A stretch of DNA of 64,000 bases from Syntrophales bacterium (GTDB lineage: Bacteria; Desulfobacterota; Syntrophia; Syntrophales; PHBD01), in NCBI GenBank assembly GCA_963668175.1, contig OY764159.1, positions 4,025,516 to 4,089,515 on the forward strand, read 5' to 3'. The position numbers and the translations under genes are program-made. A model generated the notes under the pieces. The model worked only from the letters and a program-made list of their open reading frames with translations, was not told the origin of the DNA and ran no database searches. Below are positions 15,303 to 24,643 of the stretch, in pieces (within the stretch, counting starts at the first letter, position 1; each line of letters starts with the position of its first letter).

Positions 15303-16826
15303 ATGGAAACCTTTACTCTCGCGGCCATCAGCCTGACGATAGCCATTTCCCTGACCATCAACAAGAAAAGGGACGGCCTGCAACTCTCTTTTGCCGCGCT
15401 CTGTTTGGCTGTTTTTTTTCACAAAAGCGGGGTTTTCTTCCATGACTTGCTGAAAAACCCTTTCTGGAAAATGATCGCCGATATGGGTCTCGTCGCGACG
15501 GCACCGCTCGCAATCCGTTTTACATCGGCCCTGTCGAACGGACTGAGTTTCCTCACCCCCAAATGGACCGTATCCGCGACCTTCATGGCCGTTCTGCTGT
15601 CCGCGGCCACCTTCACGCCCCTTGACCGCTGGCTTTATATGGACACGGTTCTCCGGACATTTTCATTTGGTATGCTGGGTCTCTGTTATCTCGCACTGCT
15701 TCATTATACAAAATCCAAAGTGGCCGGTATCGAAAGATGGAGGTTTATTTATCTGTCGACAGCCTGTACGGTCTCAGCCGTCTTGAGCCTTCTCGATTTG
15801 TTCCATTACTTCGGTTATAATTTTCCCCGTTTGTCGGATATCGTCATTGCCGGTCTCCTCTATTTTGTATTCATGTTCATCACCCATCACCGTCTTATAG
15901 AAATTCAGGAGTTGATGGCCCGAGCCCTCTTTATCGCCATTCTAACGATGTTTGCGGCGATTGCCATCTATTCCGTTATCGGACTGTTCGGCATGGGCGT
16001 CACCCTGCCGTTCACCCCGGTTCTGCTGGCTTCCTTTATCATCGTCATTTCCATCAGCCCTTTCCGGGAAATTCTGGAGAAACTGTTCGGCAAACTTTAC
16101 CCGGACAGCAAAGACCTGTTCACGTCCATGTTTACCTTTGACGAAAAAATCGAGCGCGAAAAATCCGTGATGCTGGAGGAAATGGCTCCCGTCCTTGCTC
16201 ACGAGATCCGCAACCCCCTAGGATCCATCAAAGGTGCGGCGCAGTATCTGCGCTCGGAGGCAACGACCGAGGAAAACGAGAAACTCCTGGACGTCATCAT
16301 TGAAGAGGTCAACAGATTGAACAGTGTTGTTTCGCAGTTCCTCGACTTTGCGAAACCTTATACGTTGACGCTGAAGCCGACGGATATCAACCAAATCATC
16401 GAAAAGGCCGTTTCGATCATCAAGGCCAATGACATATCCGGAAAAATAACCATAGAGAGAGAACTTCGGCCTCACCTGCCGCCGATCATGGCAGACCAGG
16501 AACAGATCATCCAGGTGATCCTGAATATCGCCTTCAACGGCATTGAAGCCATGCCGGAAGGCGGAACGCTCACATTCAGAACGACCAAGATCGCAAGCGA
16601 TGTAGGCGACGCCATAGGAATCTCCATCCGCGACACGGGCGCAGGCATCAAGAAGGAGGAGATGATCAACATTTTCAAGCCGTTTTTTACGACCAAGGAA
16701 CGCGGCGTAGGGCTTGGATTGGCCATCTGCCGGAAAATCATCAAGACCCATGGCGGCCATATCCGCGCCAAGTCCATCGTCGGACAGGGAAGCATCTTTT
16801 ATATCAGATTGGGCACGGCCTATTGA
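15303..16826 (+). CDS. membrane sensor histidine kinase (NtrB-like transmitter)
   Basis: The N-terminal half is polytopic and hydrophobic. An H-box (LAHEIRNPLGSIKGAAQYL) and HATPase motifs (NGIEAMPEGG, IRDTGAGI, GVGLGLAICRKII) are present. Confidence 0.9.
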   Translation: METFTLAAISLTIAISLTINKKRDGLQLSFAALCLAVFFHKSGVFFHDLLKNPFWKMIADMGLVATAPLAIRFTSALSNGLSFLTPKWTVSATFMAVLLSAATFTPLDRWLYMDTVLRTFSFGMLGLCYLALLHYTKSKVAGIERWRFIYLSTACTVSAVLSLLDLFHYFGYNFPRLSDIVIAGLLYFVFMFITHHRLIEIQELMARALFIAILTMFAAIAIYSVIGLFGMGVTLPFTPVLLASFIIVISISPFREILEKLFGKLYPDSKDLFTSMFTFDEKIEREKSVMLEEMAPVLAHEIRNPLGSIKGAAQYLRSEATTEENEKLLDVIIEEVNRLNSVVSQFLDFAKPYTLTLKPTDINQIIEKAVSIIKANDISGKITIERELRPHLPPIMADQEQIIQVILNIAFNGIEAMPEGGTLTFRTTKIASDVGDAIGISIRDTGAGIKKEEMINIFKPFFTTKERGVGLGLAICRKIIKTHGGHIRAKSIVGQGSIFYIRLGTAY

Positions 16827-16870
16827 GACGCGTCCTTGACACGACAAACATTCCATAATAGATCAAACCT

Positions 16871-18238
16871 ATGAAAAATATCCTCGTAGTTGACGATGAA
16901 TTAAATATGCGCCTCGTTCTGAAGGCCATGCTGAAGAAGGAGGGATACGACGTCGTCCTGGCATCCGACGGCGCCGAGGCTCTGGACATTCTCAAAAAGG
17001 AGGAGATAAGCATTGTGGTGTCCGATCTGAAGATGCCCAGGCTCGACGGAATGGAACTCCTGGAGAGGGTATCCCAATCGTGGCCGTCCATACCGGTCAT
17101 CATCATCACGGCCCACGGCACGATCGCTACTGCGGTCGATGCCTTGAAAAAAGGCGCTTTCGATTACATCACAAAACCCTTCGAGCAGGACGAACTGAAG
17201 AACATCATCTTTAAAGCCATCAAGACCAAGACCTTAAACGAAGGCGAAGCCCTCTTCCGGCCGGACGATATCGAACGTTACGGCATTATCGGCAACAGCA
17301 AAGTCATGCTGGAGACATACGATGTCATTAAAAAGGTCGCCCCGACGACAACGACGGTGATGATTACGGGAGAGACGGGAACGGGAAAGGAACTTATCGC
17401 CAATGCCGTTCATGTGAACAGTCCCCGGCGTCAGAACCCCTTCATCAAGATCAACTGTGCCGCTATCCCGGAAAATCTCATGGAGAGCGAACTCTTCGGC
17501 TTCGAGAAAGGGGCTTTCACCGGCGCCGTCGTCGGCAAACCGGGGAAATTCGAACTGGCCCATAAGGGAACCCTGTTTCTGGACGAAGTGGGAGAATTAT
17601 CCAAGGAGATGCAGGTCAAAATCCTGACCGTGATCCAGGACCATCAATTCGAGCGGGTCGGCGGAATCCGCACCATCAAAGTCGATGTGAGGCTGATTAC
17701 CGCGACCAATCGCAATCTGCGCCAGGACGTGAAGAACGGAACCTTCCGGGAAGATCTTTTCTACAGGCTCAATGTTTTCCCCATTCACGTTCCCCCGCTC
17801 AGAGAGCGAAGAGAGGATATCCCGCTTCTCGTCGACTATTTTCTGGACAAATTCAACAAGAAGCTGAACCGCTCCGTCAAATCGATCGAACCGGCCGTCA
17901 TGGACATCCTGGAACAGTACGATTGGCCAGGAAATATCCGGGAGTTGGAGAATTTCACGGAAAGACTCGTGCTTATGGCCCAGGGAGAAACTATCGGGCC
18001 CCAGGATATCCCCGGTGAATGGAAAACAGCCGCGGAATCGTCGATCCTGGTTAAATCGGACGACCGGAAGACAGCCCTGAAAGACTGGATCAAAAACCAG
18101 ACGGAAGAAATAGAAAAACAGATGATCACAAAAGTCCTCGACGAATGCGGAGACAATGTGACCAGGGCGGCCAAGCAACTGGGCATGAGTAGAAAGGGAC
18201 TCCAACTCAAGATGATTAAGTATGACCTCCGGAAATAG
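16871..18238 (+). CDS. sigma-54-dependent response regulator (NtrC family)
   Basis: It has a receiver domain (ILVVDDE...VSDLKMP), an AAA+ domain (GETGTGKE) with the GAFTGA loop (ESELFGFEKGAFTGA), and a C-terminal Fis-type HTH (NVTRAAKQLGMSRKGL). Confidence 0.95.
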   Translation: MKNILVVDDELNMRLVLKAMLKKEGYDVVLASDGAEALDILKKEEISIVVSDLKMPRLDGMELLERVSQSWPSIPVIIITAHGTIATAVDALKKGAFDYITKPFEQDELKNIIFKAIKTKTLNEGEALFRPDDIERYGIIGNSKVMLETYDVIKKVAPTTTTVMITGETGTGKELIANAVHVNSPRRQNPFIKINCAAIPENLMESELFGFEKGAFTGAVVGKPGKFELAHKGTLFLDEVGELSKEMQVKILTVIQDHQFERVGGIRTIKVDVRLITATNRNLRQDVKNGTFREDLFYRLNVFPIHVPPLRERREDIPLLVDYFLDKFNKKLNRSVKSIEPAVMDILEQYDWPGNIRELENFTERLVLMAQGETIGPQDIPGEWKTAAESSILVKSDDRKTALKDWIKNQTEEIEKQMITKVLDECGDNVTRAAKQLGMSRKGLQLKMIKYDLRK

Positions 18239-18369: not shown

Positions 18370-19296
18370 ATGCATGCGGCGGATGAATGTATGAGCTCCA
18401 GTTATCCCATACAGCTGTCACAGCTTATCAGACCAACGCCGAAAGCCATCCTCGCAGAGGTCCGAAAGATTTTCTGCTATCACTATCCCAGCAAATATTT
18501 CATTGACGTCTATAAGAATTATACGCTTATCAAGCAGCTCTTCGAAGGGAAATTCCCCGGCTACAGGGCGTGCAATACCCATTATCACGATTTCATGCAC
18601 ACGATTACCATCCTGCTCAGCGCAATCCGGCTCGTCGACGGGTTCAATCTCAAGAATGATGCTCTGCCGGTTCATGCAGCCGCGAATCTCCTCAACGCGG
18701 CCCTTTTCCACGACACGGGATACATCCAGGAAGCATGGGACCAAACAGGCACCGGCGCAAAGTACACGTCCACCCACGTAGGCAGGAGTATCGAATTCCT
18801 GACCAAGCACCAGGCTGTTTTTATCATCGATCCGAACCAGTTGGAGAACATCAGCAATATCATTCTGTGTACCGATTTGGGAGTCGACATAGACTCCATT
18901 GCATTTTCCTCGACGGAAGACAGGATGATCGGCTTTATGCTCGCGACATCCGACCTGCTGGCCCAAATGTCCGACCGGGCATACCTGGAAAAGTTGCTTT
19001 TCCTCTATTACGAATTCAAGGACGGGGGAATTGAAGGGTTCGATTTTGAATTCGATATCCTTCGCAAAACGACTGTCTTTTACGAATTCATGAAAAAACG
19101 CCTCACCGAGACATGCGGAAGCGTCTATAACAATGCCCAAATCCATTTCGAAAAGAGATACATGATCGATCAGAACCTCTACATGGAAGCGATAGAACGT
19201 CACATGGTCTATCTTTATAAAATCATCGAGGACGACAGCACCAACTTCCGCCATAAATTGCGGCGGGGCGCCTGGGTACACACCTATCCTGCGTGA
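18370..19296 (+). CDS. HD-domain (metal-dependent phosphohydrolase-like) protein
   Basis: An H...HD...D pattern is present: YHDFMHTITILL, AALFHDTGY and TSDLLAQMSD. The start may be the ATG at 18391 (MSSSYPI). An almost equally long antisense ORF (18418..19350) is judged an artefact. Confidence 0.7.
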   Translation: MHAADECMSSSYPIQLSQLIRPTPKAILAEVRKIFCYHYPSKYFIDVYKNYTLIKQLFEGKFPGYRACNTHYHDFMHTITILLSAIRLVDGFNLKNDALPVHAAANLLNAALFHDTGYIQEAWDQTGTGAKYTSTHVGRSIEFLTKHQAVFIIDPNQLENISNIILCTDLGVDIDSIAFSSTEDRMIGFMLATSDLLAQMSDRAYLEKLLFLYYEFKDGGIEGFDFEFDILRKTTVFYEFMKKRLTETCGSVYNNAQIHFEKRYMIDQNLYMEAIERHMVYLYKIIEDDSTNFRHKLRRGAWVHTYPA

Positions 19297-19399: not shown

Positions 19400-19837
19400 A
19401 TGCAGACCCTGGAGAGAGCAATCGCCATCGCGGCAGAGGCCCATGCGGGCCAGATCGATAGAATCGGTGCCCCTTATATCCTGCATCCCTTAAGGCTCAT
19501 GATGAAGATGGACTCGATTGGCGGCATGATCGTCGCCGTGCTTCACGATGTCGTCGAAGACAATATCGCATGGCCCCTGCCGAGATTGCACCAGGAAGGG
19601 TTCGGCCGGGAGATTATCGACGGTGTCGATGCCATGACGCGGAGACAGGACGAGACGTACCCGCAGTACATCCTCAGGGTTGCGGAGAATAGGCTCGCGA
19701 AGGCGGTGAAGATGCATGATCTGGAAGACAATATCAATATCAGAAAATTCATAGAACAGACCGAAGAGGACCGATACAGAATCAGGAAATACGAGAGTGC
19801 CCTGAATACGCTGAAGGCGATGGAAGCAGGCACCTGA
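19400..19837 (+). CDS. small stand-alone HD-domain protein of the RelA/SpoT-hydrolase type
   Basis: 145 aa. AIAIAAEAHAGQIDRIGAPYILHPLRL and VLHDVVED match the (p)ppGpp-hydrolase HD signature. GGAGAA lies upstream. Confidence 0.8.
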   Translation: MQTLERAIAIAAEAHAGQIDRIGAPYILHPLRLMMKMDSIGGMIVAVLHDVVEDNIAWPLPRLHQEGFGREIIDGVDAMTRRQDETYPQYILRVAENRLAKAVKMHDLEDNINIRKFIEQTEEDRYRIRKYESALNTLKAMEAGT

Positions 19838-20127: not shown

Positions 20128-21042
20128 ATGCCCAGTCGGTATCTTTATTCTGCTGATGATATCAAGAAAGCCTATGAGCAGACCGCCGACCACGTCCGGA
20201 CAAGAAATATCATCACACAATATTCCATAAATCAAAGCGATATCAGAGATATAGCTCTTGAGGGCCTTGCTCTGTCATGGGCGAGGCATATCCTGGAATT
20301 GGGTTGCGGCTATGGAGCTTTTACGAATAAACTCGCCGGTCGTCTTCATCATGATGCGGAAATTACCGGAATCGACATGGTCGCCGAAAACGGGCCCCAT
20401 TTTTATGCCGTTGTGGACGCCCTGGGGTATCGCTGCTCGTTCATTCACGGCAACGCATCTCTGATCAAACGCATGGCAACAGACAGCTTCGATCTCGTTA
20501 TTGCGAGTTATTCCCTCTATTTCTTTCCCCAGTTGATAGAGGATATCGCCCGTATTCTCAACCCCGAAGGCGTCTTCGTCGTCATAACCCATTCCCGGCA
20601 CTCGCTCGTCGAGATTCTTGAATTCATTCCCAAGTGTCTGACTAAAATGGGCCTCGGCCGTCCGGGAAGAACCCGCCTGGCCCGCCTATTCGACGTCATC
20701 TCCATGGAAAACGGGCATAGGAAGCTCGCCCTCTATTTCGACAGGATAGAAACCGTCCTCTATAAGAACAGATTGATGTTCTCTCGGGAAGACATCAAGG
20801 ACTGCCTGGACTACATCATGAAAAAAGATACCCTTCTCTTCAAGGATATCGAAGATAAGTATCCTCTGCAAAAAGAAACTATACGCTCACATTTCTACAA
20901 TGACCTGAATCAATACATCATGGAAAAGGGATTCCTGTCCGTGACGAAAGACGATGCTATTTTCCGCTGTTACCATCCTTCAATCAGGCAGCGCAGAAGA
21001 CCGAAGCGAAAGAAGAAACCAGAAGTCGTCTCGAATCAATAG
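20128..21042 (+). CDS. class I SAM-dependent methyltransferase
   Basis: Motif I (ILELGCGYGAF), the post-I acidic residue (ITGIDMV) and LVIASYSLYFF are present. The C-terminal tail is basic (RQRRRPKRKKKPE). Confidence 0.8.
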   Translation: MPSRYLYSADDIKKAYEQTADHVRTRNIITQYSINQSDIRDIALEGLALSWARHILELGCGYGAFTNKLAGRLHHDAEITGIDMVAENGPHFYAVVDALGYRCSFIHGNASLIKRMATDSFDLVIASYSLYFFPQLIEDIARILNPEGVFVVITHSRHSLVEILEFIPKCLTKMGLGRPGRTRLARLFDVISMENGHRKLALYFDRIETVLYKNRLMFSREDIKDCLDYIMKKDTLLFKDIEDKYPLQKETIRSHFYNDLNQYIMEKGFLSVTKDDAIFRCYHPSIRQRRRPKRKKKPEVVSNQ

Positions 21043-21369
21043 TATTAATGAGGACATGCCGGAACGGATTTGTATTACAATATTATCTTCGAATCTTATT
21101 CGATAGTTAAGTTCTATCTCTGCTTTTCATAGTACTTTACTATTTGATGACTTTGGGGTGATACAACTTTTGTGATACAGGCAATATTTTAGTTATCCTC
21201 ATATGTTAACGTGTATGTACGGTCAAAAGATGGGCCACGGACCATGGATGAGCTTGTTATCGTCCCGGGAAATATGATATTGTTTATCATCATTGCCGGA
21301 TGATATTACAATATCGAAATCGCGGCAGCAACGCAACGAACGCAGGACGGCTGCCTGACAGAATGTGAC

Positions 21370-23754
21370 ATGCGGGAAACACTGACAAAAAGTACTTCCG
21401 AAAACCATCGCTACCACATCGGATGGACGGAAGACGCCTATCAAGGATCTTGCATATGTACCTGGCCGGATGGCAGCCGATACGAAGGTCAGATTGAACA
21501 TGAACACTTTCACGGCCAAGGAAAATTCACATGGCCGGACGGCAGCAGTTACGAAGGAGAATGGGAACTTGACCTTCCGCATGGTCAGGGTACATTCACT
21601 TCTGCTGACGGTAAGGAATTATCCGGCGAATGGATCCTTGGTCATGCCGTTAAACCCAAACCCACCGAAGCTGAATTAGCACAACAAAAGGCTGAAGAGG
21701 AAGCCAGGCTAAAGGCCGAAGAAGAGGCACGCCTCAAAGCCGAAGAGGAAGCACGGCTCAAGGCCGAGGAGGAAGCACGGCTCAAAGCCGAAGAGGAAGC
21801 CCGCCTCAAAGCTGAAGAGGAAAGCAGACGCAAGGCCGAAGAAGAGGCACGGCTCAAAGCCGAAGAAGAAGCCAGGCTTAGAGCTGAAGAGGAAGCCAGA
21901 CTCAAGGCTGAAGAAGAGGCACGGCTCAGAGCTGAAGAGGAAGCCAGACTCAAGGCTGAAGAAGAGGCACGGCTCAGAGCTGAAGAGGAAGCCAGACTCA
22001 AGGCCGAGGAAGATGCCCGCCTCAGAGCCGAAGAGGAAGCCCGCCTCAAAGCTGAAGAGGAAAGCAGACGCAAGGCCGAAGAAGAGGCACGGCTCAAAGC
22101 CGAAGAAGAAGCCAGGCTTAGAGCTGAAGAGGAAGCCAGGCTCAAGGCCGAAGAAGATGCCCGCCTCAGAGCTGAAGAGGAAGCCAGGCTCAAGGCCGAA
22201 GAAGATGCCCGCCTCAGAGCTGAAGAGGAAGCCAGACTCAAGGCCGAGGAAGATGCCCGCCTCAAAGCCGAAGAAGAAGCCCGCCTCAAAGCTGAAGAAG
22301 AAGCCCGCCTCAAAGCTGAAGAAGAGGCACGGCTCAAAGCCGAAGAAGAAGCCCGCCTCAAAGCTGAAGAAGAGGCACGGCTCAAAGCCGAAGAAGAAGC
22401 CCGCCTCAGAGCTGAAGAGGAAGCCAGGCTCAAAGCCGAGGAAGAAGCGCGACTCAGGGCTGAAGAGGAAGCCAGACTCAAGGCCGAAGAAGAAGCCCGC
22501 CTCAGAGCTGAAGAGGAAGCCAGACTCAAAGCCGAAGAAGAAGCCCGCCTCAGAGCTGAAGAGGAAGCCAGACTCAAAGCCGAAGAAGAAGCCCGAATCA
22601 AGGCTGAAGAGGAAGCCGGACGCAAGGCCGAAGAAGAAGCCCGAATCAAGGCTGAAGAGGAAGCCGGACGCAAGGCCGAAGAAGAAGCGCGAACCAAGGC
22701 TGAAGAGGAAGCCAGACGCGAGGCCGAGGAGGAGGCACGGTTCAAAGCTGAAGAGGAAGCCAGACGCAAGGCCGAAGAAGAAGCCCGCCTCAGAGCTGAA
22801 GAGGAAGCCAGACGCGAGGCCGAGGAGGAGGCACGGCTCAAAGCCGAAGAGGAAGCCAGACGCAAAGCCGAAGAAGAAGCCCGACTCAGAGCTGAAGAGG
22901 AAGCCAGACGCGAGGCCGAGGAGGAGGCACGGCTCAAAGCCGAAGAGGAAGCCAGACGCAAAGCCGAAGAAGAAGCCCGACTCAAGGCCGAAGAAGAGGT
23001 ACGGCTCAAAGCCGAAGAAAAAGCCAGACTCAAGGCCGAGGAGGAAGCCCGAATCAAGGCTGAAGAAAAGGCACAGACTAAGACAGAGGAACAACCCCCT
23101 TCCGAAGACCAGGCAGCCATGATGCCCGGTCAGGGTTCTATCAATCTACCAGACGGCAGCAGATATATTGGAGAACTGAAAAAAGGAAATCCCCACGGTC
23201 AGGGCATCATGACCTACCCAACTGGTGAGAGATACCTCGGTGATTGGAAAAATGGACGGAGAGACGGTCAAGGCAGCCTGATTTTACCCGACGGCTCAAC
23301 CTATACAGGCCGCTGGAAAAAAGACAAAAGAGACGGCGAAGGCACCATGACCTTTGCAGACGGCAAGAAATACATTGGAGAATGGGGCGACGATCAATAC
23401 AATGGGACAGGCACAGAAACAACCGTCGATGGTAAAAAGTATGAAGGTCAATTCCAGGACGGAAAGTACCATGGTGAAGGAACCCTGACCCTCCCGGATG
23501 GCAAGAAATACGTGGGACAATTCCTTAACGGTTTTTCAAACGGCAAAGGAGTACTGGCTTTTAACGAAGGCCGTTACGAAGGAGAGTTCTTAAACAACAA
23601 ATACCATGGTTACGGGACTCTGACTATGAAAGACGGCAGACGATATACCGGTTTTCTGGAAAATGGTCTGCCGCATGGACAGGGCACCATGCTTCTAGCC
23701 AACGGCAAGAAATATATAGGGGAATTTATTAACGGCCGTTTCGTTGAGAAATAA
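21370..23754 (+). CDS. MORN-repeat protein with a ~465-aa central (AEEEARLK)n charged-helix repeat
   Basis: 794 aa. There are about 3 MORN units at the N-terminus ([22 protein letters not shown]...) and 8-9 at the C-terminus ([23 protein letters not shown]...). About 58 octads lie between them. No signal peptide or TM segment is visible. Confidence 0.85.
21691..23090 (+). repeat. in-frame tandem repeat: 24-bp unit with 48/96/240-bp higher-order copies
   Basis: The unit gcYgaagaRgaagcccgcctcaRa is iterated about 58 times. Positions 21787-21899 are identical to 22027-22139. 48-bp units recur at 22594/22642 and 96-bp units at 22801/22897. Confidence 0.95.
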
Positions 23755-23975: not shown

Positions 23976-24560
23976 ATGAGAGACCAGTTAAAACAGATCA
24001 TACAGAACGAAGAAAAACGGAGCCTCGTTAATTTCGAATGGTCCGACAACCTCTACGAAGGGGAAGGATACTGCACATTGCCCGACGGAGGAACATATAA
24101 CGGACAATGGAAGGAAGGCCATTTTGAAGGGACGGGCACATATACTTGGGCCGACGGGACGAAATACGAAGGCGAGTGGCGTAACAACCTGCCTGAAGGT
24201 ATGGGTATCATGACACTCCCTGATTCAAGTCGTTATGACGGGGAATGGAAGGAGGGCTACGCTGAAGGGGAAGGAACGGAGACCCATCCGGACGGATCGG
24301 TTTACAAGGGCTCATGGAAAAGGGGAGCCAAGGACGGCTCCGGTCACATGACCTATTCCGACGGCAAACAATATACCGGGGAATGGAAGGATGACAAGTG
24401 CCACGGGCAAGGAACCCTGATCTTCACCGACGGTTCCAGCTACAAGGGGGAATGGCAGGACAACAACATCACGGGACGGGGTACGCTCACATTCTCCGAC
24501 GGGAAGAAATATCTCGGGGAATGGAAAGACGACGAGTTTGACGTCATCGAAATCTTATGA
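23976..24560 (+). CDS. MORN-repeat protein (MORN-only, ~7 repeats)
   Basis: 194 aa made of consecutive Yx-GxW-xGxxxGxGxxxxxDG units (YNGQWKEGHFEGTGTYTWADGTK, YEGEWRNNLPEGMGIMTLPDSSR, and so on). Confidence 0.85.
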   Translation: MRDQLKQIIQNEEKRSLVNFEWSDNLYEGEGYCTLPDGGTYNGQWKEGHFEGTGTYTWADGTKYEGEWRNNLPEGMGIMTLPDSSRYDGEWKEGYAEGEGTETHPDGSVYKGSWKRGAKDGSGHMTYSDGKQYTGEWKDDKCHGQGTLIFTDGSSYKGEWQDNNITGRGTLTFSDGKKYLGEWKDDEFDVIEIL

Positions 24561-24607
24561 TCGCTTTCCCTGTTCCGCTCGACGTTACGTTATCCTCAAC
24601 TGGACAG

Positions 24608-24635
24608 GCTCGGGCTCATTCCCGGGCTTTTTGTT
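24608..24635 (+). terminator. Rho-independent terminator after the second MORN gene
   Basis: GCTCGGG ctcatt CCCGGGC forms a 7-bp stem with one G-U pair, followed by TTTTTGTT. Confidence 0.6.
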
Positions 24636-24643
24636 CCATCCTT

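What the first reader, a model, noticed from the sequence alone, without database searches (positions are those of the whole stretch)
21370..23754. Junctophilin-like 'molecular ruler': two MORN modules separated by a ~465-residue ER/K-type charged helix
**Seen in the sequence.** The 794-aa ORF has about 3 MORN units at the N-terminus and 8-9 at the C-terminus. They are separated by about 58 consecutive octads of consensus AEEEARLK. Within the octad lattice every acidic residue has a basic partner at i+4 (E2-R6, E4-K8, R6-E10, K8-E12). A and L are strong helix formers.

**Inference.** The 8-residue period is out of phase with the heptad needed for a coiled-coil seam. This is the signature of ER/K single alpha-helices rather than coiled coils. 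At 0.15 nm rise per residue, about 465 residues would give a rigid spacer of roughly 70 nm.

**Established knowledge.** MORN repeats joined to a long helix are the design of eukaryotic junctophilins, which tether membranes. An E/K/A-rich helix also forms the spanning domain II of TolA.

**Why it is interesting.** No signal peptide or TM segment is visible, so the protein would act in the cytoplasm. I know of no characterised bacterial protein with this MORN-spacer-MORN layout. It could set a fixed distance between two membrane or protein surfaces.
Basis: partly seen in the sequence, partly recalled or inferred. Interest (0 to 1): 0.75.

Follow-up and report, generated by a model that had tools for sequence, protein, structure and literature searches.

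The report
Bacterial MORN protein split by giant charged helix
A bacterial gene encodes a MORN-repeat protein whose repeat array is interrupted by 58 near-perfect AEEEARLK units, predicted to form an unusually long single charged alpha-helix that acts as a semi-flexible spacer, not a fixed-length ruler.

Summary
ORF 21370..23754 (+) encodes 794 aa: three MORN hairpins, 58 in-register AEEEARLK octads (aa 108-571), then nine MORN repeats. There is no signal peptide or TM segment.

The octads are a real, selected coding feature. Variation among units sits at third codon positions, and 26 identical peptides are written by 15 DNA versions. Charge pairing at i+4 is 2.6 times the shuffled value. There is no heptad signal, and AlphaFold2 predicts helix 100-418 and 430-563. 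An ER/K-type single alpha-helix is therefore well supported by sequence, though not by experiment.

The "junctophilin-like rigid 70-nm ruler" reading is only partly supported:
- Orthologs keep both MORN ends and a co-located ~190-215-aa MORN-only partner gene, but their spacers differ in kind and in length (464 to ~935 aa).
- Spacer kinds are ER/K octads, degenerate charged helix, heptad coiled-coil-like repeats and P/G-rich low complexity.
- The same octad occurs in many unrelated proteins.
- With the published ~15 nm persistence length, rms reach is ~40 nm.
- There is no TM anchor, and the MORN module is closest to MORN1.

New finding: the spacer is a clean 492-aa insertion in an inter-hairpin loop of a MORN array paralogous to the partner. 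This is the position of junctophilin's joining region. The repeat count is not confirmed by a spanning read. Function is unknown.

The parts
21284..21312 (+). sigma-70-like promoter match in the AT-rich intergenic region upstream of the long gene (weak)
   Evidence: 9 of 12 consensus matches. No sigma-54 -24/-12 match lies upstream.
21370..23754 (+). Long MORN-spacer-MORN gene, 794 aa
   Evidence: The start agrees with the orthologs and with the paralogous partner.
21370..21648 (+). N-module (aa 1-93): N-terminal cap motif plus 3 MORN beta-hairpins
   Evidence: AF2 strands 26-89, with block pLDDT 71-92 over aa 21-90. Collinear from Met1 with the partner protein (40% identity). 40-48% identical among the 4 full-length orthologs.
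21649..23124 (+). Insertion relative to the partner MORN array (aa 94-585, 492 aa): short linker, octad array, P/S/E/Q-rich linker
   Evidence: Deleting aa 94-585 gives one top HSP across the junction with the partner. Partner 1-189 aligns at 44% identity, E 6e-55.
21691..23082 (+). 58 octads (AEEEARLK)n, aa 108-571: predicted ER/K-type charged single alpha-helix. DNA periods are 24, 48 and 240 bp.
22603..22674 (+). Octads 39-41 with two Gly-containing units (AEEEAGRK; G417, G433): possible hinge
   Evidence: AF2 helix break at aa 419-429 and pLDDT < 50 at 413-435. Unit list.
23083..23127 (+). Flexible linker [15 protein letters not shown] between the helix and the C-module
   Evidence: AF2 pLDDT < 50 at 561-588. 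A comparable short non-helical linker is present in all 11 orthologs.
23128..23751 (+). C-module (aa 587-794): 9 MORN repeats. Repeats 6-8 are the most conserved.
   Evidence: Block pLDDT mostly 88-96. Conservation per repeat is 0.61-0.85, highest in repeats 6-8. Best PDB matches are MORN1.
23976..24560 (+). Partner gene: 194-aa MORN-only protein (cap plus ~7 repeats), paralogous to the long protein's MORN array. Sequence-confirmed immediately downstream in 7 orthologous loci.
24606..24639 (+). Intrinsic-terminator-like hairpin plus T-run after the partner gene. None lies between the two genes on the + strand.

Best explanation
**What it is.** The gene encodes a cytoplasmic MORN-repeat scaffold protein. 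Its roughly 12-repeat MORN array is paralogous to the small MORN protein encoded next to it. The array is interrupted in an inter-hairpin loop after repeat 3 by a 492-residue insertion made almost wholly of 58 AEEEARLK octads.

**Shown.**
- The octads are translated in this frame and kept by purifying selection on the peptide.
- They have the dense E-R/K i+4 and i+3 pairing, the lack of a hydrophobic seam and the predicted continuous helix that define ER/K-type single alpha-helices.
- Orthologs keep both MORN parts and the partner gene, but change the spacer's sequence, physical type and length.

**Inferred.**
- The helix is monomeric and works as a very long, highly soluble, semi-flexible spacer or tether. 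Its contour is ~70 nm and its rms reach ~40 nm, possibly hinged at two Gly-containing units.
- It holds a small 3-repeat MORN head and a 9-repeat MORN head tens of nanometres apart.
- The heads are protein-protein interaction modules, as shown for MORN1. The conserved repeats 6-8 are candidates for self-association or for binding the partner.
- The spacer grows and shrinks by in-frame unit duplication (24, 48 and 240 bp). What is selected is 'long, non-sticky and extended', not a fixed length.
For: **Frame and selection**
- MORN modules flank the array in the same frame.
- Among the 58 units, minor-allele counts are 37, 29 and 156 at codon positions 1, 2 and 3.
- There are 35 DNA versions for 14 peptides, and 15 DNA versions for the 26 exact AEEEARLK copies. 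Synonymous to non-synonymous codon differences are 4889:2108.

**SAH hallmarks**
- 64% of residues are charged.
- 235 opposite-charge i+4 pairs against 91 +/- 7 in shuffles, and 129 at i+3.
- Hydrophobic power at period 3.5 has z = -0.9, and at most 25% of a/d positions are hydrophobic.
- AF2 predicts helix 100-418 and 430-563 at pLDDT ~70-80.
- De novo AEEEXXX repeats form SAHs experimentally (PMC5347031).

**Insertion**
- One collinear HSP crosses the deletion junction.

**Family**
- P0002, L001 and P0332 are full length. L002 and L037-L042 are cut by contig ends inside the spacer.
- C-modules are 51-65% identical.
- A partner with confirmed MORN sequence lies downstream in 7 other loci.

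**MORN as a protein-protein module**
- PMC7725318. The best sequence and fold matches are MORN1.
Against: - There is no experimental evidence of helicity, monomeric state or expression. No RNA run was found.
- AF2 confidence in the helix is only moderate and pTM is 0.33.
- The array is Arg-rich, and Arg-rich de novo SAHs aggregated in vitro (PMC5347031).
- Some orthologs have heptad signals in the spacer: P0332 z = 5 to 8, L040 windowed z = 7.9. The ancestral spacer may therefore have been a coiled coil.
- Two orthologs use P/G-rich low-complexity spacers, so helicity itself may not be what is selected.
- Whether the two MORN parts stay apart or re-dock into one sheet could not be tested.
- The unit number is not verified by a spanning read.
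Confidence: 0.55

Rival explanations
1. Looped-out insertion. The N- and C-modules re-associate in cis into one continuous MORN beta-sheet, as junctophilin MORN1-6 and 7-8 do around the joining region. The spacer then projects as a giant loop or hairpin, acting as an entropic bristle, steric shield or binding platform rather than separating two heads.
For: - The spacer is a clean insertion in an inter-hairpin loop of an array collinear with the partner.
- Junctophilin's joining region lies between MORN6 and MORN7, is low-complexity, and leaves a continuous 19-strand sheet (PMC8916002).
- All spacer kinds seen in orthologs (low-complexity P/G-rich chain, coiled-coil-like repeats that could form a hairpin, hinged helix) are compatible with a loop.
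- A Gaussian-chain estimate of my own, from the rms distance, puts the effective end-to-end concentration near 10 micromolar.
Against: - A 464-residue helix of ~15 nm persistence length resists tight closure.
- The Gly hinge (aa 417-433) divides it unequally (about 318 and 134 residues), so it would make a poor hairpin.
- Each module consists of complete hairpins and is predicted to fold on its own.
- No contact information was available from the models.
Confidence: 0.2
2. One reading: a rigid, fixed-length (~70 nm) molecular ruler or junctophilin-like tether that sets the distance between two membranes or surfaces through lipid-binding MORN ends.
For: - Two MORN modules sit at the ends of a long predicted helix.
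- The spacer is long in every ortholog, at least 464 aa where complete.
Against: - Spacer length and type are not conserved: 464, ~670, ~715 and ~935 aa, with L040 at 679 aa or more, and four physical kinds.
- SAHs are semi-flexible, so rms reach is ~40 nm (PMC5347031).
- MORN1 repeats did not bind membranes (PMC7725318).
- There is no TM anchor.
- The MORN module is closer to MORN1 than to junctophilin.
Confidence: 0.08
3. The helical spacer is an oligomerisation element (a two-stranded or higher coiled coil), so the protein is a parallel or antiparallel rod-shaped dimer.
For: - Ortholog P0332 has ~65-aa amphipathic repeats with significant heptad periodicity (z = 5.0 global, 8.0 windowed).
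- L040 has local heptad signal (z = 7.9).
- Pfam lists a faint Tropomyosin hit for P0332.
Against: - In the window's array Leu recurs every 8 residues, advancing 80 degrees per unit around the helix.
- Power at periods 3.5-3.75 is nil, and at most 25% of a/d positions are hydrophobic.
- A period of 4.0 cannot form a coiled-coil seam.
- Net charge of -53 would repel a parallel partner.
Confidence: 0.1
4. The octad array is a mostly disordered polyampholyte linker. Only length and solubility matter, and the helix is marginal in vivo.
For: - Orthologs P0002 and L001 have P/G-rich (17-22%) non-helical low-complexity spacers.
- The same octads are a generic filler in many unrelated proteins.
Against: - The array has 24% Ala and 9% Leu, no Pro and only 2 Gly.
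- The charges are perfectly phased at i+4.
- Purifying selection acts on the exact pattern.
- AF2 predicts helix.
- Designed AEEEXXX repeats are highly helical (PMC5347031).
Confidence: 0.07

Closest known systems
[quoted passage not shown]
   Same: - E/R/K/A-rich composition with dense i+4 and i+3 salt-bridge pattern.
- No hydrophobic seam.
- Links two functional modules.
- The AEEE-start of the unit matches designed SAH repeats (PMC5347031).
- A eukaryotic myosin-head protein among the repeat hits carries 11 similar octads (P0026).
   Different: - 8-residue unit instead of 7.
- 464 residues, against the 25-200 usually quoted (PMC5347031, PMC10602382).
- Near-perfect tandem repetition.
- Net charge -53, and Arg outnumbers Lys.
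- Bacterial host.
- Not tested experimentally.
Junctophilins (JPH1-4)
   Same: - A MORN array interrupted by a low-complexity insertion between two repeats (the joining region), plus a long helix in the same protein.
- MORN sequence and fold similarity: E ~1e-21, TM ~0.5.
   Different: - No C-terminal TM anchor.
- Split is 3+9 repeats, not 6+2.
- The helix is the insertion itself, not a backbone helix following the array.
- Bacterial and cytoplasmic.
- Closer to MORN1 than to junctophilin.
MORN1 of Trypanosoma, Toxoplasma and Plasmodium (PDB 6T4R, 6T68, 6T69, 6T6Q)
   Same: - Best sequence match (E 1e-42) and best fold match (TM 0.72-0.76, 36-38% identity) for the 9-repeat C-module.
- MORN1 dimerises tail-to-tail through its last repeats and acts as a protein-protein module (PMC7725318).
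   Different: - MORN1 is an uninterrupted 15-repeat array with no spacer.
- Dimerisation of the bacterial module is not tested.
TolA domain II
   Same: A long E/K/A-rich helical spacer. NCBIfam TolA_full (TIGR02794) scores 116 bits on the octads, above its cutoff of 59.
   Different: - The match covers only profile positions 120-233, the low-complexity helix.
- No N-terminal TM anchor, and no match to any part of the TolA models outside that helical stretch.
- A TolA label would be a misannotation.
Variable linkers where length rather than sequence matters (for example the FtsZ C-terminal linker; from my own knowledge, not tested here)
   Same: A spacer between conserved modules whose sequence, composition and length drift freely between species.
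   Different: Here the spacer is much longer, and in this genome it is an ordered-helix-type repeat.

Membership tests
MORN repeat proteins (Pfam PF02493) | Tandem ~23-residue YxGxW...GxG repeats that form beta-hairpins | tested here: met
   Pfam E 5e-59 with 8 stretches. AF2 gives 3 + 9 hairpin repeats; the C-module blocks are mostly pLDDT 88-96. Foldseek TM is 0.75 to MORN1.
ER/K single alpha-helix (SAH) | High E/K/R content with dense opposite-charge pairs at i+4 and i+3 and few same-charge pairs | tested here: met
   64% charged. 235 opposite-charge i+4 pairs against 91 +/- 7 in shuffles, with 10 same-charge pairs. At i+3 the counts are 129 and 3.
ER/K single alpha-helix (SAH) | No hydrophobic seam (no heptad or hendecad periodicity) | tested here: met
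   Power at periods 3.5, 3.6 and 3.67 has z about -1. At most 25% of a/d positions are hydrophobic. Leu advances 80 degrees per octad.
ER/K single alpha-helix (SAH) | Predicted continuous helix without tertiary contacts | tested here: inconclusive
   AF2 predicts helix 100-418 and 430-563 at pLDDT ~70-80, but pTM is 0.33 and no contact map was available.
ER/K single alpha-helix (SAH) | Monomeric and highly helical in solution, with weakly cooperative melting | not testable with these tools
   Needs CD, AUC or SAXS.
Junctophilin | C-terminal transmembrane anchor | tested here: not met
   The maximum 19-residue hydropathy is 0.25, and the protein ends inside the last MORN repeat.
Junctophilin | Eight MORN repeats split 6+2 by a joining region | tested here: not met
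   The split is 3+9. The principle of an insertion in an inter-repeat loop is shared.
Junctophilin | Backbone alpha-helix after the MORN array, packing in its glycine valley | tested here: inconclusive
   The helix lies between the MORN parts. Whether its Ala stripe packs on a MORN sheet could not be read from the models.
Junctophilin | Closest sequence or structure relatives are junctophilins | tested here: not met
   JPH1/2 score E 1e-21 to 1e-22 and TMt 0.45-0.56. MORN1 scores E 1e-42 and TMt 0.72-0.76 in the better-fitting entries.
TolA | N-terminal TM anchor (domain I) and C-terminal domain III | tested here: not met
   There is no hydrophobic segment. The NCBIfam match is confined to profile positions 120-233. 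Pfam finds only MORN plus low-complexity artefacts.
Canonical coiled coil | Heptad a/d hydrophobic core | tested here: not met
   for the window. The feature is met in ortholog P0332 (z = 5 to 8).

The most novel reading that the evidence does not exclude
The long protein and its small paralogous partner form a previously unrecognised bacterial cytoplasmic tethering or scaffolding system. A MORN array was split by a giant spacer so that its two halves can bind in trans (half-array to half-array, or to the partner). This would build chains or meshes with spacing of tens of nanometres, or leash a client structure.

The lineage has swapped the spacer between single alpha-helix, coiled-coil-like and low-complexity chains while keeping reach. 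The window's 464-residue array would then be one of the longest natural single alpha-helices.
Probability: 0.15. Interest if true: 0.75.

Novelty: new variant of a known kind. Interest (0 to 1): 0.5.

Why it matters
- **An extreme natural SAH candidate.** SAH domains and MORN repeats are both known. A near-perfect 58-unit (464-residue) natural ER/K helix is more than twice the usual quoted upper length. It is a ready-made, selection-tested substrate for SAH biophysics: stiffness, Arg/Lys balance, and the effect of an 8-residue rather than 7-residue unit.
- **A natural experiment on linkers.** Within one orthologous family the same position between conserved modules holds an SAH-like array, a charged helix with heptads, a coiled-coil-like repeat or a P/G-rich low-complexity chain. 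This shows what a long linker has to provide.
- **An entry point into bacterial MORN proteins.** No bacterial MORN protein appeared among solved structures in my PDB searches, and I know of none that is functionally characterised. The conserved two-gene module gives a tractable place to start.
- **A practical annotation warning.** The array scores above the NCBIfam TolA cutoff, and it breaks metagenome assemblies. It also creates long spurious ORFs in other frames.

Tried and rejected
**Homolog searches that misled or fell short**
- The full-length homolog search was swamped by the low-complexity repeat. It was useful only to show that the octad is generic, and to fish out P0002, P0011 and P0054.
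- The search with the spacer deleted returned only generic MORN proteins. All listed hits fell within roughly 0.57-1.75 times the query length, so I infer a length filter that excluded the true orthologs.
- The exhaustive phmmer search of the C-module was dominated by long multi-repeat MORN proteins. Only P0002, P0011 and P0332 are orthologs.
- The genome-contig scan gave one ortholog (L002, a Syntrophaceae MAG). The other 34 loci were generic MORN proteins (checked).

**Look-ups that found nothing**
- The exact-sequence look-up of the 794-aa protein is not on record.
- Organism identity is hidden. The window belongs to a 4.57-Mb contig.

**Queries that could not be made**
- The search for homologous proteins with P0002 failed twice.
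- As a result, more full-length orthologs and a taxonomic placement were not obtained.

**Read data**
- Run X9 does not contain this organism. X5, X6 and X7 hold only fragments or a ~93-95% relative.
- No RNA runs were found.
- No read spans the array.

**Other negative or uninformative results**
- The Pfam Cornifin and DUF2345 hits and the NCBIfam TolA hit are rejected as composition artefacts.
- No PADLOC hit for either MORN protein, no Rfam hit in the window, and no sigma-54 promoter upstream.
- The AF2 mini-construct gave no usable information on N-C docking, because contacts and PAE are not returned.
- The PDB sequence search with the octads gave only incidental charged helices.
Full report
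**1. The observation**

The ORF at 21370..23754 (+) is real and encodes 794 aa. A parse in register finds exactly 58 consecutive octads at aa 108-571 (DNA 21691-23082). The consensus is AEEEARLK, and A1, E2 and E3 are invariant. E4 holds in 52 of 58 units, A5 in 55, R6 in 55, L7 in 42 and K8 in 42. Tandem Repeats Finder reports one array (period 48, 28.7 copies, 85% matches, no indels). It is the only tandem array in the whole window.

Pfam finds MORN repeats (E 5e-59). Its Cornifin and DUF2345 hits fall on the octads and are composition artefacts. AlphaFold2 secondary structure and my own repeat parse give three beta-hairpin repeats at the N-terminus and nine at the C-terminus. There is no hydrophobic segment: the maximum 19-residue hydropathy is 0.25.

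E3 has Leu, not a base, at i+4 and i-4, and pairs only at i+3 and i-3.

**2. Is the array a real, selected coding feature?**

Yes, on three grounds.
- The MORN modules on both sides are in the same frame.
- Among the 58 DNA units, minor-allele counts are 37, 29 and 156 at codon positions 1, 2 and 3.
- There are 35 distinct DNA units for only 14 peptides. The 26 exact AEEEARLK copies are written in 15 ways, Arg6 uses five codons, and synonymous codon differences outnumber non-synonymous ones 4889:2108.

So the peptide pattern is under purifying selection. The long ORFs in other frames and on the other strand (492, 461 and 369 aa) are by-products of the repeat.

Higher-order periods of 48 and 240 bp (92% identity between 21691-21990 and 21931-22230) show that the array grows by block duplication.

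Short-read unitigs from four runs of the same sample break inside the array. Their depths match the assembled multiplicity: depth relative to the flank is about 0.9 per assembled copy. No read spans the array, so the exact unit number stays unverified.

**3. Single helix, coiled coil or disorder?**

- The array is 64% charged, 24% Ala and 9% Leu, with no Pro and two Gly. Net charge is -53.
- Opposite charges at i+4 number 235, against 91 +/- 7 in shuffles. Same-charge pairs number 10.
- Hydrophobic periodicity is nil at 3.5-3.75 (z about -1) and huge at 4 and 8.
- Leu advances 80 degrees per unit around an ideal helix, and at most 25% of heptad a/d positions can be hydrophobic. A period of 4.0 cannot make a coiled-coil seam.
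- AlphaFold2 (3-sequence alignment) gives helix 100-418 and 430-563 at pLDDT ~70-80. The only break falls exactly at the two Gly-containing units AEEEAGRK.

Designed AEEEXXX repeats form stable monomeric single alpha-helices. The same paper gives a persistence length of ~15 nm and typical natural lengths of 40-200 residues, and notes that Arg-rich designs aggregate (PMC5347031).

An ER/K-type SAH is therefore the best-supported structure. It would be a worm-like chain rather than a rigid rod: contour 69.6 nm, rms end-to-end ~40 nm. It is also unusually long and Arg-rich.

**4. Relatives**

The full-length search was dominated by the repeat. Of the 120 best hits, 48 carry 10 or more AEEEARxK-type octads next to unrelated domains. 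These include:
- Piscirickettsia salmonis FtsY, in which my motif parse finds an unbroken run of 29 AEEEARLK units;
- response regulators with DUF4388, GGDEF and TIR domains;
- PilB and HEAT-repeat proteins;
- diatom PDZ proteins;
- a eukaryotic protein with a myosin head.

The octad is thus a generic, recurrent spacer solution.

True orthologs were recognised by the C-terminal MORN module (51-65% identity, ending ...GEFxNG[RK]FV).
- P0002: 1013 aa.
- L001 ORF 8870..12583: 1237 aa. P0011 is its truncated gene call.
- P0332: 976 aa, from NCBI MAG GCA_964632285.1.
- L002 (Syntrophaceae MAG) and metagenome contigs L037-L042. All of these end inside the spacer, presumably because the repeat breaks assembly.

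All four full-length proteins have the N-terminal module, which is 40-48% identical among them. All eleven have the nine-repeat C-module (L042 lacks one repeat), with repeats 6-8 the most conserved.

| Ortholog | Spacer kind | Length | Evidence |
|---|---|---|---|
| Window | AEEEARLK octads | 464 aa | |
| L037 | AEEEA[RK]RK octads | contig-cut | |
| L042 | AEEEAR[LI][KR]-like units | contig-cut | |
| L040 | Degenerate charged helix, local heptad signal (windowed z = 7.9) | 679 aa or more | |
| L002, L038, L039, L041 | Degenerate charged helix | contig-cut | |
| P0332 | ~65-aa amphipathic repeats, clear heptad periodicity (z = 5-8) | ~670 aa | |
| P0002 | P/G-rich low complexity | ~715 aa | |
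| L001 | P/G-rich low complexity | ~935 aa | |

The MORN ends are conserved while the spacer's sequence, physical type and length are not.

**5. A conserved two-gene module and the origin of the spacer**

A MORN-only gene of ~190-215 aa lies directly downstream in the window (23976..24560), L001, L002, L037-L040 and L117. The window has a terminator-like hairpin only after this second gene.

The partner's first ~96 residues are collinear from Met1 with the long protein's N-module, at 40% identity. When aa 94-585 are removed, the long protein aligns to the partner in one top-scoring HSP that runs straight across the junction. Partner 1-189 aligns at 44% identity, E 6e-55, with GEWKEGYAEGEG matching GEWILGHA|PGQG.

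The spacer is therefore a clean 492-residue insertion into an inter-hairpin loop of a MORN array paralogous to the partner.

No other gene context is shared between loci. In the window the neighbours are:
- upstream: a histidine kinase, a sigma-54 response regulator, two HD-domain proteins and a SAM methyltransferase;
- downstream on the other strand: aspartate aminotransferase, CoaD, RsmD and Asd.

**6. Comparison with known systems**

The C-module's best solved relatives are trypanosome and apicomplexan MORN1 (E 1e-42; Foldseek TM 0.72-0.76). Junctophilin-1 and -2 are more distant (E 1e-21 to 1e-22; TM 0.45-0.56). No bacterial MORN structure was among the matches.

MORN1 repeats are protein-protein modules that dimerise tail-to-tail through the last repeats. 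They did not bind membranes (PMC7725318).

Junctophilins have eight MORN repeats interrupted between repeats 6 and 7 by a low-complexity joining region that leaves a continuous sheet. They also have a backbone helix, a divergent region and a TM anchor (PMC8916002). The window protein fails the junctophilin membership tests: no TM anchor, a 3+9 split, and MORN1 rather than junctophilin as the nearest relative. Its spacer does occupy the topological position of the joining region.

NCBIfam's TolA model scores above its cutoff, but only on the helical low-complexity stretch. The TM anchor is absent, and neither TolA model matches outside that stretch.

**7. Most likely mechanism**

I take the protein to be a cytoplasmic two-headed MORN scaffold. 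A giant ER/K single helix keeps a small 3-repeat head and a 9-repeat head tens of nanometres apart. It acts as a soluble, semi-flexible and extensible tether, possibly hinged at G417/G433. The heads would bind proteins, with self-association or the partner as the first candidates.

| | Status |
|---|---|
| Anatomy | Shown |
| Selection on the peptide | Shown |
| SAH sequence hallmarks | Shown |
| Insertion origin | Shown |
| Family pattern | Shown |
| Monomeric helicity | Inferred |
| Independence of the two heads | Inferred |
| Binding function of the heads | Inferred |

The main rival is that the two MORN parts re-dock in cis and the spacer is a looped-out appendage, as in junctophilin. I could not test this because the models return no contacts. 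The fixed-length ruler, coiled-coil and pure-disorder readings are less likely for the reasons above.

**8. Verdict**

The feature is real and striking, and its structural reading (SAH) is sound. The 'junctophilin-like molecular ruler' label overstates both rigidity and kinship. It is a new variant of known kinds: an exceptionally long ER/K helix inserted in a bacterial MORN array, within an uncharacterised two-gene MORN family.

Interest is moderate (0.5). It offers good material for SAH and linker biophysics and a first handle on bacterial MORN proteins, but there is no functional lead yet.

Noticed in passing
window 21642..23120 (-), 21709..23094 (-), 22013..23122 (+, other frame): The stop-free repeat creates spurious ORFs of 492, 461 and 369 aa in other frames (Ser/Ala-rich, Phe/Gly/Leu-rich and Lys/Pro-rich). 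Gene callers could report them.
   Followed up: partly
window 21691-23082 (protein aa 101-211 best stretch): NCBIfam TolA_full (TIGR02794) scores 116 bits on the octads, above its curated cutoff of 59.45. JGI labels several unrelated octad-bearing proteins 'membrane protein involved in colicin uptake'. This is a systematic misannotation risk for ER/K repeats.
   Followed up: yes
P0007 (Piscirickettsia salmonis FtsY, 592 aa): The N-terminal domain of this FtsY holds an unbroken run of 29 units of the very same octad AEEEARLK, apparently a convergent or independently expanded spacer. The same unit type occurs in a eukaryotic myosin-head protein (P0026) and in diatom PDZ proteins.
   Followed up: partly
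P0002 aa 123-141; L001 ORF aa ~129-147: The two orthologs with P/G-rich spacers have a hydrophobic stretch about 30 residues after the N-module. P0002 has ILDIPVIVVLPVPLSFSAI (hydropathy 2.15) and L001 scores 1.54. It is absent from the window protein. It could be a membrane-associating segment or nothing.
   Followed up: no
L030 1831..4185 and L031 4336..7218 (Lachnospiraceae MAGs); P0140; P0054: Other bacterial lineages also have MORN modules separated by long low-complexity spacers. The Lachnospiraceae proteins use acidic Ala/Glu-rich linkers. P0140 is a lipoprotein-signal protein with 3 MORN, ~230 aa of P/E/A-rich sequence and 7 MORN. P0054 combines TIR, ER/K-like repeats and MORN. Split MORN arrays may be a recurrent design.
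   Followed up: no
window 20128..21042 (+): The SAM-dependent methyltransferase just upstream matches the PADLOC model mad2 (mads_2) at E 2.5e-16 over part of the profile. No other defence-system component was seen nearby.
   Followed up: no
window 18370..19296 (+) and 19400..19837 (+): There are two small HD-domain proteins. One is a weak Npun_R2479-type HD metalloprotein. The other is a 145-aa RelA/SpoT-type HD hydrolase domain alone, possibly a small (p)ppGpp hydrolase. They follow a histidine kinase and sigma-54 response regulator pair (15303..18238). L001 also has such a pair about 6 kb upstream of its MORN gene, which is probably coincidence.
   Followed up: no
L037-L042, L002 (contig starts): Every metagenome or MAG contig that carries an ER/K-spacer ortholog ends inside the spacer. 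This family will be systematically truncated or missing from short-read assemblies and protein catalogues.
   Followed up: partly
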